Assembly (NCBI GenBank): GCA_951406725.2
Contig: OX597833.1
Coordinates: 71,362,001 to 71,426,000, forward strand
Direction: 5' to 3'
DNA from: Octopus vulgaris
Taxonomy: Eukaryota
DNA: 64,000 nucleotides
Positions 9,486 to 61,990 of the stretch are shown piece after piece. Each line of letters starts with the position of its first letter. Within the stretch, counting starts at the first letter, position 1. The position numbers and the translations under genes were made by a program. The notes under the pieces were generated by a model. That model saw only the letters and a list, made by a program, of their open reading frames with translations. It was not told the origin of the DNA and did no database searches.

Positions 9486-10319
9486 GTATCTAATTCTTTC
9501 TCGTATATCAAACAACAATTGCTATGATTAGTGTATTGAGAATAACAGAAGAGGAAGAACCGAGTTCTCAGTTGGTTGGGCTGTTGGAAATAGATAATAG
9601 AGGAAAAAGTAATGAAGGAGGAACCAGTTACAGAACTAAACTAGGTTACATAATTCAGCCATGCAAATGTGCCAAGTCAGTCGAGATCATTCAAAGAAAT
9701 GAGGTTTGGATATTTATGCAATCCTATTTAATTTACATACAAACACACGTGCATGCGTGCGTGTGTGTGTGAACTAGCCTAGATGGATGCATAATAAATA
9801 TGCAGATATTCATTGCAGATCCTGCTGTACATGGTGCAAATATAGATTTCATATAAGCACCAATCAGCAAAGATTTGTTCACTGAAACTATAAACAAAGG
9901 CCAACTGCTTTGGCCAGACTCAAAGGTCAGGGGTACTTCTGGCTGATGAGACACAACACATTGAAACACTGGAGTCGCAGAATCCTTTTGTGCCAATAAG
10001 TTGAGTGTGTTGAATGTGCCATCGTCACAAGGGATGGAAGTTTACTTCTTTGGCATATTTTGCAGCTCAACCCACCTGGATGTATTGAGAACAAACAAAT
10101 ATTTGGGTCATGAAATTATTGCACAAATTCTCTTCCATTCAGAGAGAGAAAACAAACATCAAACATCTCAGCCACAAACCAGAGAAGGTGTCTCACCATG
10201 TCAGGTACCCGATTTCAGGATTACAACCATTAACATAGGAAATAGGGATGGAAGAGATTGTAGCTATATAGGGGTGAATAGATGAGTGCCATGTTCAAGA
10301 AGATGGAAGCAAACATCAG

Positions 10320-10810
10320 GCAGACACATCAAAGACATACAGCATCTCCAAAGAGTCCAGAAGCTGGCTACCCGCATGGTTCATGGTCTCAAGAATTTGT
10401 CTTATGAAGAAAGGCTGAAGACGCTCAACCTTTATTCTCTAGAAAAACGCCGCCGCCGTGGTGATCTCATTCTCGCTCACAACATCATAAGCGGAAAGTG
10501 TAACCTCTCGAAAGAGCTGTTCTTCACTCCTGCTCCAGAGCGTCGGCTGCGGGGTCATTCCAAAAAGCTCTATCTGCGACGATTTTATCTCAATCGAAGG
10601 AGAGGGACTTTCTCCGTCCGGGTTGCGGATCCGTGGAACAAGCTGCCGGACGAGATGGTGAAGATGCCGACGACCGCTTTGTTCAAAGTCTCCCTTGACC
10701 TCAAGTGGCCTGAACTCTTTACATGAACACCACCCTGTACATAACTCCATGTCCCCCTACATGGCCTTGCTTTTTGCTTTTTGAGCCAAAAATTTAACTA
10801 ACTAACTAAC
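10320..10810 (+). mobile_element. 5'-truncated CR1-clade LINE: ORF2 C-terminus, 3'UTR and (TAAC)n tail
   Basis: 'DIQHLQRVQKLATRMVHGLKNLSYEERLKTLNLYSLEKRRRRGDLI...RLRGHSKKL...FSVRVADPWNKLP' is the typical CR1 C-terminus. Frame is open and CpGs are retained, suggesting a young copy; tail aactaactaactaac. Confidence 0.92.
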
Positions 10811-25016: not shown

Positions 25017-25256
25017 TTGTGTCTGGGGAGAGTCATTTTCTTTTTGTGCCTTATTATGTAAAATTTCCACGTTTTCTTATTTTTATTGTCCTAAACTTTT
25101 TGTTGCGTCTTGCAACCTTTTCAATAGTTTTGATTAGAATCAAAACTATTGAAAAGGTTGCAAGACGCAATGAAAATTTTAGGACAATAAAAATAAGAAA
25201 ATGTGGAAATTTTACATAATAAGGCACAAAAAGAAAATGACTCTCCCCAGACACAA
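25017..25256. repeat. 240 bp near-perfect palindrome
   Basis: 119 bp arms, 2 nt centre (AG, 25136-25137), 4 mismatches counted by eye. Confidence 0.97.
25146..25182 (+). ncRNA. Minimal type-I hammerhead-like motif, U3-A8 variant (mirror copy at 25091-25127 on minus)
   Basis: CTA TTGAAAA G GTTGC-AAGAC-GCAAT GAAAA TTT TAG; the mirror copy has GAAA>AAAA from CpG decay. Confidence 0.6.
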
Positions 25257-25676
25257 TTTTCATAAGCTTCTTAGTGTTCCCAGAAGTACTACGTCTTCAA
25301 AATTCAGCATTGTAAAAACAGCCTACTTTGAGTGAATTTATGTTAAATATTTCCTAACTTAAGATCAGAGGGGAAAGGCTTCTTTAATGGATGCATAAAA
25401 GTTTTGCTTATTCTTGTTCTTACATAAATCAAAAATGAAAGATGATAGCTAAGAAGTTTCCTAAAATGCTTCCTGCTTTAAAACTGCCAGTTTTTAGCTC
25501 ATTATTCGCATGCAACATCCAGCTGAGAGATGTCTCATCACAAGAAACTAATGAAACCCACTTAAATTGTTGGAATGAAATTTGAGAATGTCTTGTCTTA
25601 ATTCTTCCCTAAATCCACCTGGCATTGTCCCTTTTAGATATTAAAAGATCATTATCTCTGCAAATTTTTCCCAAGA

Positions 25677-33585: not shown

Positions 33586-33700
33586 GAACTTCATTAGCTC
33601 ATAGCCGAAACAGCTGTTAAGCTAATGAAGTTCATAGCCGAAACAGCTGTTAAGCTAATGAAGTTCATAGCCGAAACAGCTGTAAGCTAATGAAGTTCAT
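33586..33700 (+). repeat. 3 x 33 bp tandem of a hammerhead 3' half
   Basis: Unit tcatagccGAAACAGCTGT(t)AAGCTAATGAAGt, preceded by its inverted complement gaacttcattagct; same family as 36271-36319. Confidence 0.85.
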
Positions 33701-33981
33701 AAAATAAGCATTTATTCATTTGTCATCATATCCTCTTACACACACATATATACTTATATTCATACATACATATACATACACACACGCACACACATATGAT
33801 AAAGTATTATCTATAACAATGAGTTTCACAAACCTGAGAGCTCTTCAGAAGTGACAATATATATATTTTACTAGACTCATTCTTCTGAATAAAAATTTAC
33901 ACACACACACATCATGTGTGTGTATATTTATAATATAAATATATACGTAGCTGGCTTAATGATGAATGATAAAGGAGTGCT

Positions 33982-36270: not shown

Positions 36271-36319
36271 TAGCTTACAGCTGTTTCAACTATAAGTTGA
36301 CAAAGCTTCATCAGAGCCA
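36271..36319 (-). ncRNA. Type-I hammerhead ribozyme motif, canonical core
   Basis: Reverse complement: TGGCT CTGATGA AGCT-ttgtcaacttat-AGTT GAAAC AGCT GTA AGCTA. 5 bp stem I, palindromic stem III, GUA site. Confidence 0.75.
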
Positions 36320-41310: not shown

Positions 41311-41400
41311 ACATAAATAAAAATAAAGTGTGTGTGTGTGAGTGTGTATATATATATATGAAAGAAGGTTTGAAAATGCAATTTCAAAAGATGTTTATTC

Positions 41401-41442
41401 ACTTGACCGGTTTCACTTTTTTAGAAAAAGATTGTCAAAAGT
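41401..41442 (-). ncRNA. Type-I hammerhead motif, U3-A8 variant
   Basis: Reverse complement: ACTT TTGACAA T CTTTTT-CTA-AAAAAG T GAAAC CG GTC AAGT. Confidence 0.72.
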
Positions 41443-41822
41443 AAAATATAAAAGCTTTGTAGTGTTGAGTACTGGTTTTCACAAAATATTACAATACATA
41501 TATACATTCAGGTCAGTTCATCTCAAATTCTTTGTAAACTAAATATATCTCCTTCTGTGTGTATATATATATATATACCACCAAAATATGACCTTTTTGA
41601 ACTTATAATTTTCTGTGTATATATATAGATACTTCCAAACAAACATGATTTTTAATGAAATCCTAATATTTTTAACAAACTTTTTGATATTTTCTCAAGA
41701 TTTTTCCTATAAACTGTTTTTAACATTTTCTTACTATTATCAAAGAATGTATATATGTATTGTAATATTTTGTGACAACCAGTACCTAACACAACAAAGC
41801 TCTTACAAAGCTTTTACATTTT

Positions 41823-41864
41823 ACTTTTGATAATCTTTTTCTAAAAAAGTGAAACCGGTCAAGT
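41823..41864 (+). ncRNA. Type-I hammerhead motif, U3-A8 variant
   Basis: ACTT TTGATAA T CTTTTT-CTA-AAAAAG T GAAAC CG GTC AAGT; GUC site; palindromic stem III ACCGGT. Confidence 0.72.
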
Positions 41865-41948
41865 GAATAAATATCTTTTAAAATTGCATTTTCAAACCTT
41901 CTTTCATATATATTTCCACTCGTGCGGTACCTTACAACTTCACTTTGT

Positions 41949-56901: not shown

Positions 56902-57010
56902 ATGTATGTATATATATATATGTGTGTGTGTGTATAATTAAATATTGAACGATTGACTGAGTGCACAACACTGCCTTGGTGGATATATAATTTCTTTATT
57001 TGTGAATTAA

Positions 57011-57078
57011 GGCTACCAATGGTTTCATGTTAAGTAAAGCAGGAAAATATCCTAGTCATTTAAACAATTTTTCAAGCC
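57011..57078 (-). ncRNA. Type-I hammerhead motif, U3-A8 variant (left arm of inverted repeat 56993-57218)
   Basis: Reverse complement: GGC TTGAAAA ATTGTT...AACAT GAAAC CATTG GTA GCC. Confidence 0.7.
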
Positions 57079-57133
57079 AATCACATAGAGATTGTTTTCC
57101 AGGATGGAGACGAACACTTATCTCCATGTGATT

Positions 57134-57200
57134 GGCTTGAAAAATTGTTAAGACACTGGGATATTTTCCTGCTTTTCTTAACATGAAACTAATGGTAGCC
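57134..57200 (+). ncRNA. Type-I hammerhead motif, U3-A8 variant (right arm)
   Basis: GGC TTGAAAA AT TGTTAAGA...TCTTAACA T GAAAC TAATG GTA GCC. Confidence 0.75.
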
Positions 57201-57291
57201 TTAATTCCCAAATAAAGATCACACACACACACATAAATATAAATATGCATGTATGTATGTAACTGAAGATACTACAAATAAAGCAATTCTC

Positions 57292-57332
57292 TTCTCTCCT
57301 TGATGAAGGACTTGTGCTTGAAACTTTGGGAA
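57292..57332 (+). ncRNA. Degenerate minimal hammerhead (family shared with 58690)
   Basis: TTGATGA A GGAC-TTGT-GCTT GAAAC TTT GGGAA, followed by the shared tail ttttgcaat.ttatcgacaaa. Confidence 0.5.
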
Positions 57333-57440
57333 TTTTGCAATGTTATCGACAAATCAAATCAAATAATTTTAAATATATGCACATAAATACAATATAAATA
57401 CATATACATAAGTGTATATATAAGAATATAAGAATATATG

Positions 57441-57495
<55 letters not shown>

Positions 57496-57547
57496 AACTG
57501 TTAATCCCCACACATTTTTCTCTCTCCCTGTTTTTTCTCCCTCGGTC

Positions 57548-57583
57548 CTTTCTGTCGAAGAACGTAGGCTTGAAACATCAAAG
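57548..57583 (+). ncRNA. Minimal hammerhead-like motif (A6U variant), same family as 35797
   Basis: CTTT CTGTCGA A GAAC-GTAG-GCTT GAAAC ATC AAAG, within unit ~57494-57670 directly after (TA)n. Confidence 0.55.
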
Positions 57584-57937
57584 ACTTTTCCATTCTTCCC
57601 AAACATTAAACTATTCACCTGGTGGTTGTTTCTTCACCTGTCTTCATCTTTTGTTTTCTATAAATTTAAACTAAAACCCCTCGAGTGACCAACATGTTTT
57701 ACAAGGCTCTATGCTTGGAATGACCAAATATAACTACCATTGGAAACTACACACCAGGTACAAGAAAGTTTCTTCACCAAAAAAAGTTTTTCACCACTTA
57801 CTTACACCAGTCTACTTGAATAATGGAACTGCAAATACAATATCCTTATGTATCTCACTTCTATATAAATTCTCTTATTTCCTTCTGTATTTCATATCTT
57901 TTCTACAATAATTAAAACTCAAGCATTTTCTCGCACC

Positions 57938-57985
57938 GTCTCTGATGAAGGGATATAAAAAATATCCCCGAAACAGCTGTAAGAC
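57938..57985 (+). ncRNA. Type-I hammerhead ribozyme, canonical core
   Basis: GTCT CTGATGA A GGGATAT-AAAAA-ATATCCC C GAAAC AGCT GTA|AGAC; predicted cleavage after A57981. Confidence 0.88.
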
Positions 57986-58689
57986 CTTTTCTTTATAAAT
58001 GTTCTGAAATCTATTTACTGCCTTGGATTTTTTTTTTCTTTATCTCATTCTGTCAATCTATATATATACATGCTAATACATGACCCACATTGAACTCCTG
58101 ACTCATATCATTATCAAGCCTGGAGCTTAACCATGGTCTATCCATTTCACTTACTTAGCATTTAACTGATACCTTTTGGGTCTTCCTGACACCAATACCT
58201 TTCATACCCTTGATCAGATGCCAGCGCCGCCCGACTGGCGTCCGTGTCAGGGACACATAGAAGCACCAACCGATAGTGGCCGTTTGCCAACCTCCTCTGG
58301 CCCCTGTGCTGGAGGCACATAAAAAACACCCACTACACTCATGGAGTGGTTGGCGTTAGGAAGGGCATCCGGTTGTAGAAATTCTGCCAGATCAGACTGG
58401 AGCCTGGTGCAGCCTCCATGGCTTACCAGACCCCAGTCGAACCGTCTAACCCATGCTAGCATGGAAAACAGACGTTAAATGATGATGATGATGATGATAA
58501 TAATATATATAAATATATATATATATATATGTATGTATGTATGTATTCATGCATACATGTATGTATATAAAATATACATGCATATACACATGCACTTTCG
58601 CATGCACACATACAACTGAAAAGAATGGTGTTTGTCTGGTGTCAAAAATATTTATTTCAATAAATATTTTCAGAATTGAAGACAACAAC

Positions 58690-58722
58690 CTGATGAAGGA
58701 CTTGTGTCCAAAACATTGAGAA
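58690..58722 (+). ncRNA. Degenerate minimal hammerhead
   Basis: CTGATGA A GGAC-TTGT-GTCC AAAAC ATT GAGAA; both defects are CpG>CpA changes from GTCC GAAAC GTT. Confidence 0.55.
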
Positions 58723-59075
58723 TTTTGCAATTTTATCGACAAACCAGATTTAATAATTTTACACATACCCACATAAATACATGCAATATAAATGCATATA
58801 TATATGAGTGTATATATAAGATGTGAGAATGCATATGTATGTATGTATGTATGTATATACGCATGTGCTTGTGAGTGCATATGCATTTGTGTTAACAAGG
58901 TAGAGAGTCTGTATAGATAGATGTATGTATAAATATATATACATAAACTGTATGTGTATATATAAATATATATGTATGTGTAGATGCATATATATGTATG
59001 TATGTGTGTGTATGTGTCTGTGTATGTGCAAAAAATACATATGCACATATGTACATACATATAGACAAAGAGATG

Positions 59076-61295: not shown

Positions 61296-61990
<695 letters not shown>

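What the first reader, a model, noticed from the sequence alone, without database searches (positions are those of the whole stretch)
56993..58760. Dense cluster of six hammerhead ribozyme motifs from four unrelated families: a (TA)n-associated retrozyme/Penelope-like system
Seen: HHR folds at 57011(-), 57134, 57292, 57548, 57938 and 58690 within 1.8 kb, with others at 2127, 25091/25146, 35797, 36271, 41401/41823 and 42032. Each has stem I, a C/U-U-G-A-N-G/A-A-type core, stem II, GAAA, a short or palindromic stem III and NUH. Most lie in ~150-250 bp non-coding units abutting (TA)n tracts, and different families share only the ribozyme fold. Established: minimal type-I HHRs with palindromic stem III occur in the terminal repeats of Penelope-like elements and in non-LTR retrozymes, and cleave best as dimers. 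Inference: this genome hosts a diverse population of non-autonomous HHR-bearing mini-elements that are mobilised by PLE RT, prefer TA microsatellites and pile up in hotspots. I cannot tell whether these particular families are already catalogued.
Basis: partly seen in the sequence, partly recalled or inferred. Interest (0 to 1): 0.9.

Follow-up and report, generated by a model that had tools for sequence, protein, structure and literature searches.

The report
Truncated Penelope ends carrying hammerhead ribozymes
These are broken-off tail ends of at least three different Penelope-like jumping genes lying side by side among TA repeats, each carrying the small hammerhead RNA motif already described for such elements and predicted to cut only in pairs, so the cluster is real but ordinary in a genome that holds an estimated 200,000 such insertions.

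Summary
The hammerheads are real and beat shuffles, but six motifs are four or five insertions: one head-to-head pair (A), one decayed copy (C), one intact copy (D) and two relics (B). Only three still fold. Walking upstream in other genomic copies leads A, C and D into Penelope-like coding sequence: A and D have Hydra-clade signatures, C Neptune-type ones. One near-complete A element carries the unit at both ends, 2,585 nt apart. So these are 5'-truncated pLTR ends, not retrozymes: 0 of 14 close same-family pairs are head-to-tail. The TA preference holds (62-83% of 3' ends against 6%). The hotspot mostly does not: 100 random 10-kb stretches give 76 insertions per Mb, Poisson-like, and chance predicts hundreds of such triples genome-wide. 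The extra nucleotide, U3-A8 core, palindromic helix III, inverted pairs, tails and an Octopus Hydra family with a hammerhead are all in print. No sign of cleavage was found in reads or junctions. The scan reached the same reading on four other genomes. Two leftovers: the commonest family has U at core position 6, and a tRNA-like-headed hammerhead repeat occurs elsewhere in this genome.

The parts
56939..57091 (-). Family A, inverted arm: pLTR end plus ~45-nt tail of a Hydra-type PLE; hammerhead core UUGAAAA (U3-A8) from 57075, helix III ACCAUUGGU, predicted cut after 57014; fold intact
57095..57218 (+). Family A, direct arm without tail; core from 57137, predicted cut after 57197; helix III has one change; same insertion as the inverted arm
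57290..57400 (+). B1: decayed hammerhead-like relic (core from 57300, helix II and III damaged); no family found
57434..57493 (.). (TA)30 tract between B1 and C, likely the target site
57490..57673 (+). Family C: 5'-truncated 3' end of a Neptune-type PLE; core CUGUCGA (U at position 6) from 57552, helix II decayed, predicted cut after 57579
57673..58210 (+). Family D: 5'-truncated 3' end of a Hydra-type PLE with a ~140-nt extension (58071-58210); intact hammerhead, core CUGAUGA from 57942, 7-bp helix II, palindromic helix III ACAGCUGU, predicted cut after 57981
58218..58499 (+). Unrelated abundant repeat with a (GAT)n tail, no hammerhead; 15 hits in 400 kb of random genome
58691..58793 (+). 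B2: second relic, 82% like B1 over ~100 nt; G12 changed and no helix I

Best explanation
The cluster is a set of separate, short 3' ends (pLTRs) of Penelope-like retroelements, likely left by target-primed reverse transcription that stopped early at TA-rich sites, and each end carries its parent's minimal hammerhead. Shown: A, C and D continue upstream into endonuclease and RT-side coding sequence in other copies; their 3' ends are fixed and TA-flanked, their 5' ends vary; A forms a head-to-head pair with a tail on one arm. Inferred: A and D are Hydra clade and C Neptune clade (motifs read by eye); the GIY-YIG enzyme nicks (TA)n; the hammerheads would fold as dimers through the palindromic helix III in the parent's two-pLTR transcript; single genomic copies such as these are dead and decay neutrally; neighbours collect mostly by chance at 76 insertions per Mb, helped a little by shared TA targets. 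B is likely an older relic of the same kind.
For: A: 25 of 30 loci found with the endonuclease region have the A unit 131-203 nt downstream on the same strand; a copy on C11 has A at both ends 2,585 nt apart with RT and EN remnants between. D: 16 of 30 endonuclease loci have D downstream on the same strand; its EN matches A's EN by tblastn (E 1.6e-6). C: 22 of 29 upstream segments lead into C, 4 of 30 such loci carry a Neptune-type EN, and 1 of 3 longer stretches shows RT, thumb, EN and then a C-type hammerhead. Hydra signatures CxCx5C, CxxC..E..N..CxH are seen in A and D parents as defined in PMC8557442 section 11. 12 of 14 close same-family pairs are head-to-head, 2 tail-to-tail. 16 of 30 GIY-YIG loci of a younger Neptune-type family carry one shared U3-A8 hammerhead type, 15 of them on the sense strand downstream only and one on both sides. 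Changes within A (60 copies) and D (61 copies) are nearly all one-sided. D folds as a double hammerhead in a cofold (-32.5 against -12.3 kcal/mol for one copy).
Against: Pfam names nothing in 4 frames of the A and D parents and gives the C parent's EN only E 0.011, under the cut-off; no tree was built. 33 of 37 unbiased copies of the C group reach less than 220 nt upstream of the core and many begin 55-85 nt before it, which is more peaked than plain random truncation. If B1 and B2 count as two more events, five in 1.8 kb is rare under the Poisson model (0.00005 per 64-kb window), although B-like relics are not counted in that baseline. Close neighbours are slightly in excess (6 gaps under 500 nt against 2.9, p 0.06). 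No cleavage was shown.
Confidence: 0.85

Rival explanations
1. Many short copies are solo pLTRs with a preferred 5' start: the RT primes at the 5' pLTR of the parent transcript and runs off at its start, or short pLTR transcripts amplify on their own as non-autonomous elements. This can hold alongside the best explanation.
For: 5' ends of unbiased C-group copies bunch 55-85 nt before the core; in the CCGACGA subgroup several stop at the same place and none seen goes further. The upstream pLTR of the near-complete A element starts about where many short A copies start. Non-autonomous PLE derivatives and solo pLTRs are in print (PMC8557442; PMC3846280).
Against: Ends are staggered, not fixed; long copies (L071, L075) are among the 20 fetched copies closest to the window's C; 4 of 37 unbiased copies reach 291-536 nt; TA-rich 3'-UTR patches could set the boundary by microhomology.
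Confidence: 0.3
2. Non-LTR retrozymes: non-coding hammerhead units that spread through tandem repeats and circular RNAs.
For: Units here are non-coding and 150-540 nt; retrozymes derive from pLTRs (bioRxiv 10.64898/2026.07.22.740005); B1 and B2 are a same-strand pair 1.39 kb apart with C, D and another repeat between them.
Against: 0 of 14 close pairs head-to-tail; motifs are the minimal PLE type, not canonical; ORFs lie upstream of A, C and D; B1 and B2 share sequence only from the core onwards; no back-joins in three raw RNA runs (runs of relatives).
Confidence: 0.07
3. A true insertion hotspot: earlier PLE insertions or local chromatin attract further families well beyond the TA effect.
For: Four or five events in 1.8 kb; C abuts D directly; TA content here is 7.2% against 3.5%; a review says PLEs insert into or next to older copies (PMC6765202).
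Against: Variance equals mean per 10 kb; flanks of 78 A, C and D copies hold 19 other-family events in 234 kb, 81 per Mb against 98 per Mb in random DNA by the same unfiltered count; the 200 kb around the window has 10 events, 50 per Mb.
Confidence: 0.15
4. The folds are chance matches in AT-rich repeats.
For: B1 and B2 fail the descriptor; 13 of 50 library groups looked doubtful and were dropped, one of them inside an unrelated ORF.
Against: Shuffle controls; a C-G to G-C swap in helix I between C subgroups; position at the 3' end of PLEs of two clades; RNA reads of relatives match the hammerheads far better than their flanks.
Confidence: 0.02

Closest known systems
Minimal hammerheads (min-HHR) in pLTRs of metazoan Penelope-like elements (Cervera and De la Pena 2014, PMC4209133; parts 1-2 of 4 read)
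   Same: [quoted passage not shown]
   Different: Different host and families; family C mostly has U at position 6, which the parts read do not mention.
Hydra-clade PLEs, including Hydra-1_Obim of Octopus bimaculoides (Craig et al. 2021, PMC8557442; sections 6 and 11, passages, supplement rows read)
   Same: C-terminal EN, CxCx5C linker, CxxC and CxH around E and N, about 2.5-2.7 kb, (TA)n targets, hammerhead near the 3' end, inverted 5'-truncated copy, one-sided tail. Hydra-1_Obim's helix III (acca-a-tggt) equals that of family A's commonest form.
   Different: Helices I and II and the core differ from Hydra-1_Obim, so A and D are other families; D's extension is ~140 nt rather than 30-40.
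Neptune-clade PLEs
   Same: CX2-5CxxC linker before the GIY-YIG domain and two cysteines inside it in the C parent and in the young 781-codon family; microsatellite bias.
   Different: C parent copies seen are all broken; clade not checked by a tree.
Non-LTR retrozymes (Cervera and De la Pena 2020, PMC7229834, passages; Li et al. 2026 bioRxiv, parts 1-2 of 5)
   Same: Short non-coding units with a type-I hammerhead, related to pLTRs.
   Different: No head-to-tail arrays, no canonical hammerhead, ORFs upstream, no circular RNA shown.

Membership tests
Minimal type-I hammerhead of PLEs | Core CUGANGA or UUGANAA plus GAAA and NUH, helix I closed outside | tested here: met
   A (both arms) and D pass; C passes as a family with U6; B1 and B2 fail
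Minimal type-I hammerhead of PLEs | Extra nucleotide at the 5' end of helix II and palindromic helix III | tested here: met
Minimal type-I hammerhead of PLEs | Covariation in stems | tested here: inconclusive
   Nearly none within A or D, as neutral decay predicts; one compensatory swap in helix I between C subgroups, 31 against 13 copies among the 14 commonest rows of 74
Minimal type-I hammerhead of PLEs | Self-cleavage as a dimer | not testable with these tools
   Only a cofold prediction; reads and junctions showed no cut signal
EN+ Penelope-like element | RT plus GIY-YIG ORF upstream of the hammerhead unit | tested here: met
   A; C; D: EN and thumb region, (RT core of D not reached); B: no parent found
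EN+ Penelope-like element | pLTR at both ends, 5' truncation, head-to-head inversion, one-sided tail | tested here: met
   Two-pLTR copy of A; variable 5' ends; 12 of 14 pairs head-to-head
Hydra clade (A, D) | CxCx5C linker; CxxC and CxH either side of conserved E and N; no CCHH | tested here: met
   Read by eye in broken copies; Pfam gives no name
Hydra clade (A, D) | DKT and RWK motifs | tested here: inconclusive
   Three A copies read DKA, NKT and SKT at the DKT place; RWK not recognised in the two broken 5' ends; not reached for D
Hydra clade (A, D) | Insertion in (TA)n | tested here: met
   20 of 32 and 19 of 23 ends against 6%
Hydra or Neptune clade | Placement on an RT tree with reference PLEs | not tested
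Neptune clade (C) | CX2-5CxxC linker and CC of the CCHH motif in the EN | tested here: met
   the two histidines were not checked one by one
Non-LTR retrozyme | Head-to-tail tandem units, each with a hammerhead | tested here: not met
   0 of 14 close pairs in 1 Mb; no such array in the cluster
Non-LTR retrozyme | No protein-coding parent sequence attached | tested here: not met
Non-LTR retrozyme | Expressed as monomer circles | tested here: inconclusive
   No joints in three unstranded runs whose reads are nearly all from other copies or species

The most novel reading that the evidence does not exclude
This genome is a natural screen of some 250,000 PLE hammerheads in which (i) the most successful lineage spread with U in place of A6, so the motif may work as an RNA dimerisation or RT-binding structure rather than a cutter, (ii) most short copies are solo pLTRs made by priming inside the 5' pLTR, and (iii) a tRNA-like-headed SINE of about 30,000 copies has captured a PLE hammerhead end and is moved by PLE enzymes, inverted partners included.
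Probability: 0.25. Interest if true: 0.5.

Novelty: new member of a known kind. Interest (0 to 1): 0.2.

Why it matters
The kind is known, so the cluster itself changes little: it adds three uncatalogued-looking PLE families and shows that Rfam misses them. The value lies in scale. What PLE hammerheads do is still open (PMC8557442 says so), and this genome offers dozens of families with C3-G8, U3-A8, C4 and U6 cores plus a young family with open 781-codon frames, a ready panel for cleavage assays. A PLE-moved SINE with a hammerhead, if it holds up, would be the more interesting result, but it lies outside this window.

Tried and rejected
Cut-site junction test: three held copies begin exactly at the predicted cut (L085, L313, L341, the second output cut), which suggested fossil cleavage products. 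Genome-wide pattern counts did not bear this out: for C, 6 of 457 anchored copies lack the upstream hammerhead letters and 1 looks like a junction; for D, 12 of 760, 5-7 junctions by eye (three of the six exclusion letters were out of register); control windows gave 5-6 of 7 rows about 12 nt upstream and 19 of 24 rows spread from -4 to +7, 3 of them at the cut; control denominators were not measured. Rejected as no clear pile-up. RNA: no RNA holder listed. Three raw RNA runs and one contig set laid on C and D: 4 of 2,231 raw reads are 99% alike, both strands equal, no start or end pile-ups, no joints; this says nothing on this locus. Family search for B: 2 DNA matches, both here; 5 core-pattern hits of which 3 share only the core and helix II; 2 hits with 2 mismatches allowed. 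Rfam: no hammerhead in the printed rows. The first descriptor missed the extra nucleotide and U3-A8 cores. C pair counts were one column off and were dropped. A counts used a probe that ended early and duplicate loci; replaced. D's untailed end (33 of 43) was not used because the element itself has TA there. The tail running on into the ORF start looked new but is described in PMC3846280. Lunse et al. 2016 on PLE hammerhead variants is not held; I saw only its citation, so whether U6 is reported there is open.

Full report
Setting. The window lies at G000:C20:71362001-71426000 of a 2.8-Gb assembly, about 2 Mb from the contig end, and is rich in microsatellites. From recall, size and repeats look like an octopus genome; I did not test this. 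No open frame of 120 codons or more in the window is a PLE protein.

Are the motifs real? All six places hold hammerhead-like sequence. A strict descriptor that allows C3-G8 or U3-A8, one extra nucleotide before helix II and a palindromic helix III finds 6 motifs in the window against 0-1 in each of 10 block shuffles, and 14 in 40 random 10-kb stretches against 0 in each of 3 shuffles. A scored version gives 8 against 0.2 in the window and 63 against 8 in 1 Mb at a score of 32. In the cluster only 57075(-), 57137 and 57942 pass. 57552 is a decayed member of a large family. 57300 and 58691 (B1, B2) are relics, 82% alike over about 100 nt, with no family elsewhere. Rfam printed no hammerhead in 150 of 252 rows.

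Families. Genome searches gave 1,507, 3,458 and 2,746 first-look candidates for A, C and D, 40 scored each; these are not copy numbers. Copies have fixed 3' ends and variable 5' ends. (TA)3 follows within 14 nt at 27 of 44 C ends, 19 of 23 D tail ends and 20 of 32 A tail ends; the background is 6%. The two A motifs are one head-to-head insertion whose minus arm carries the tail. So six motifs are four or five events.

Parents. Upstream of A, two of 30 copies share about 670 nt that translate to a broken endonuclease. Of 30 loci found with that region, 25 have A just downstream on the same strand, and several extend 1-1.5 kb further into RT. One copy on C11 has A at both ends, 2,585 nt apart, each followed by the tail, and the upstream tail runs on into the coding side. 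Upstream of D lies an endonuclease similar to A's (E 1.6e-6); 16 of 30 loci found with it have D downstream. Both show the CxCx5C linker and CxxC and CxH around E and N, the Hydra signatures of PMC8557442 section 11. Upstream of C, 22 of 29 segments lead into C, 4 of 30 loci carry a Neptune-type endonuclease, and 1 of 3 longer stretches shows RT, thumb, endonuclease and a C-type hammerhead in order. These counts include the query's own locus. Pfam names GIY-YIG and RVT_1 in an intact young element, gives E 0.011 for the C parent's EN and nothing for four frames of the A and D parents, so clade names rest on motifs read by eye. A GIY-YIG search also found a young family with 781-codon frames and a U3-A8 hammerhead 0.4-1.1 kb behind the stop.

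Is it a hotspot? A homology count with a 208-motif library gave 116 motifs in 98 events per Mb of random DNA and 0 in 0.5 Mb of shuffles. After dropping 13 of 50 library groups that looked like chance folds, 90 motifs in 76 events and 26 families remain, which extrapolates to about 210,000 insertions. Counts per 10 kb have mean 0.76 and variance 0.79; 1 of 100 stretches holds 3 events in 1.8 kb. By the same method the cluster has 3 events (A, C, D) within 900 nt. Simulation gives 0.010 per 64-kb window for that, some 450 windows genome-wide, 0.0015 for four in 1.8 kb and 0.00005 for five. B-like relics are invisible in the baseline, and the library favours A, C and D, so these figures overstate rarity. 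Flanks of 78 copies are not enriched in other families. There is a mild TA effect (r = 0.35, p 0.0004) and a slight excess of gaps under 500 nt (6 against 2.9, p 0.06). Of 14 close same-family pairs, 12 are head-to-head, 2 tail-to-tail and none head-to-tail.

Structure and function. Within A (60 copies) and D (61) changes are almost all one-sided and cores are better kept than flanks (0.93-0.95 against 0.84-0.89; BLAST edges may inflate this). Between C subgroups one helix I pair swaps C-G for G-C in a set collected without asking for helix I. In that set 49 of 74 cores have U at position 6 and 13 have C at position 4. PMC3088659 (passages) reports A6C as weakly active and U4C as active enough in vivo; A6U does not occur in its text, and a search for 'A6U' with 'hammerhead' listed one paper on twister ribozymes among the 15 shown of 29. 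D cofolds as a double hammerhead. RNA reads of relatives pile on the two hammerheads, several times deeper than on the flanks, which shows the motif is the best-kept part across related families, but there are no end pile-ups or joints. A junction test at the cut site showed no clear excess.

One result sits less well with plain truncation: 33 of 37 unbiased C-group copies reach under 220 nt upstream of the core and many begin 55-85 nt before it. Solo pLTRs or microhomology with TA-rich UTR patches could explain this; I give a preferred-start class 0.3.

Comparison with print. PMC4209133 (parts 1-2 of 4) describes the extra nucleotide, U3-A8, palindromic helix III, single motifs from truncated PLEs, opposite-strand pairs and low dimer-only cleavage. 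PMC8557442 (abstract, sections 6 and 11, passages, supplement rows) describes truncation, inversion, tails, (TA)n targets and lists Hydra-1_Obim with its hammerhead. PMC3846280 (passages) covers tails that continue the ORF, head-to-head pairs and solo pLTRs. PMC7229834 (passages) and bioRxiv 10.64898/2026.07.22.740005 (parts 1-2 of 5) define retrozymes by tandem units. PMC6765202 (passages) notes insertion next to older copies. PMC6962438 and PMC10886601 (passages) added only that a squid genome has 235 Rfam hammerheads and that octopus tRNA-derived retroposons were described in 1994. Searches for 'hammerhead ribozyme' with 'octopus', 'Penelope-like, hammerhead, octopus' and 'Penelope, cephalopod, octopus, Neptune' found no paper on these families; repeat databases could not be searched, supplements of bioRxiv preprints are closed, and Lunse et al. 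2016 is not held. Four earlier notes of this scan reached the same reading on other genomes; none exists for this genome.

Verdict. Real motifs, known kind: truncated ends of two Hydra-type and one Neptune-type PLE plus two relics, in a spot about as dense as chance and TA preference allow. New member of a known kind, interest 0.2.

Noticed in passing
L311:3690-4050, L089:1250-1600, L117, L108, L284, L297 (random stretches; not in the window): A hammerhead family at 12 events per Mb is preceded by an (AAT)n tract and, in 6 of 17 copies collected, by a head with A-box and B-box-like motifs (consensus recalled); several copies have inverted partners. It looks like a tRNA-headed SINE with a PLE-type end, like schistosome Sm-alpha (recalled). 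ARAGORN and Rfam call nothing; two paper searches and one look-up of earlier notes found no description.
   Followed up: partly
window 57552, 35828, 2157 and loci: The commonest hammerhead group (27 events per Mb) has U at core position 6 in 49 of 74 copies and C at position 4 in 13.
   Followed up: partly
L134, L139 and others: A young Neptune-type PLE family with many 781-codon open frames and a U3-A8 hammerhead in a long 3' region.
   Followed up: partly
G000:C11:50456262-50459050 (L360, L176): Near-complete but broken family A element with both pLTRs and tails, flanked by TA.
   Followed up: yes
window 25017-25260 and 41352-41913: Two more head-to-head pairs with U3-A8 hammerheads, 97% and 88% alike between arms; the first gives the false miRNA-like Rfam hits.
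   Followed up: partly
L132:190-260; G000:C7:113839844-113839876: Inverted junctions in which one arm ends and the other begins exactly on the two strands of helix I, as if the copy folded back on the ribozyme stem.
   Followed up: no
window 33599-33701: Three tandem 33-nt copies of the GAAAC-palindrome half of a hammerhead related to the one at 36314.
   Followed up: no
window 10286-10726: 146-codon frame that reads like the C-terminal end of a LINE ORF2 (recalled resemblance).
   Followed up: no
window 61297-61990: A 690-nt (TAT)n-type tract.
   Followed up: no
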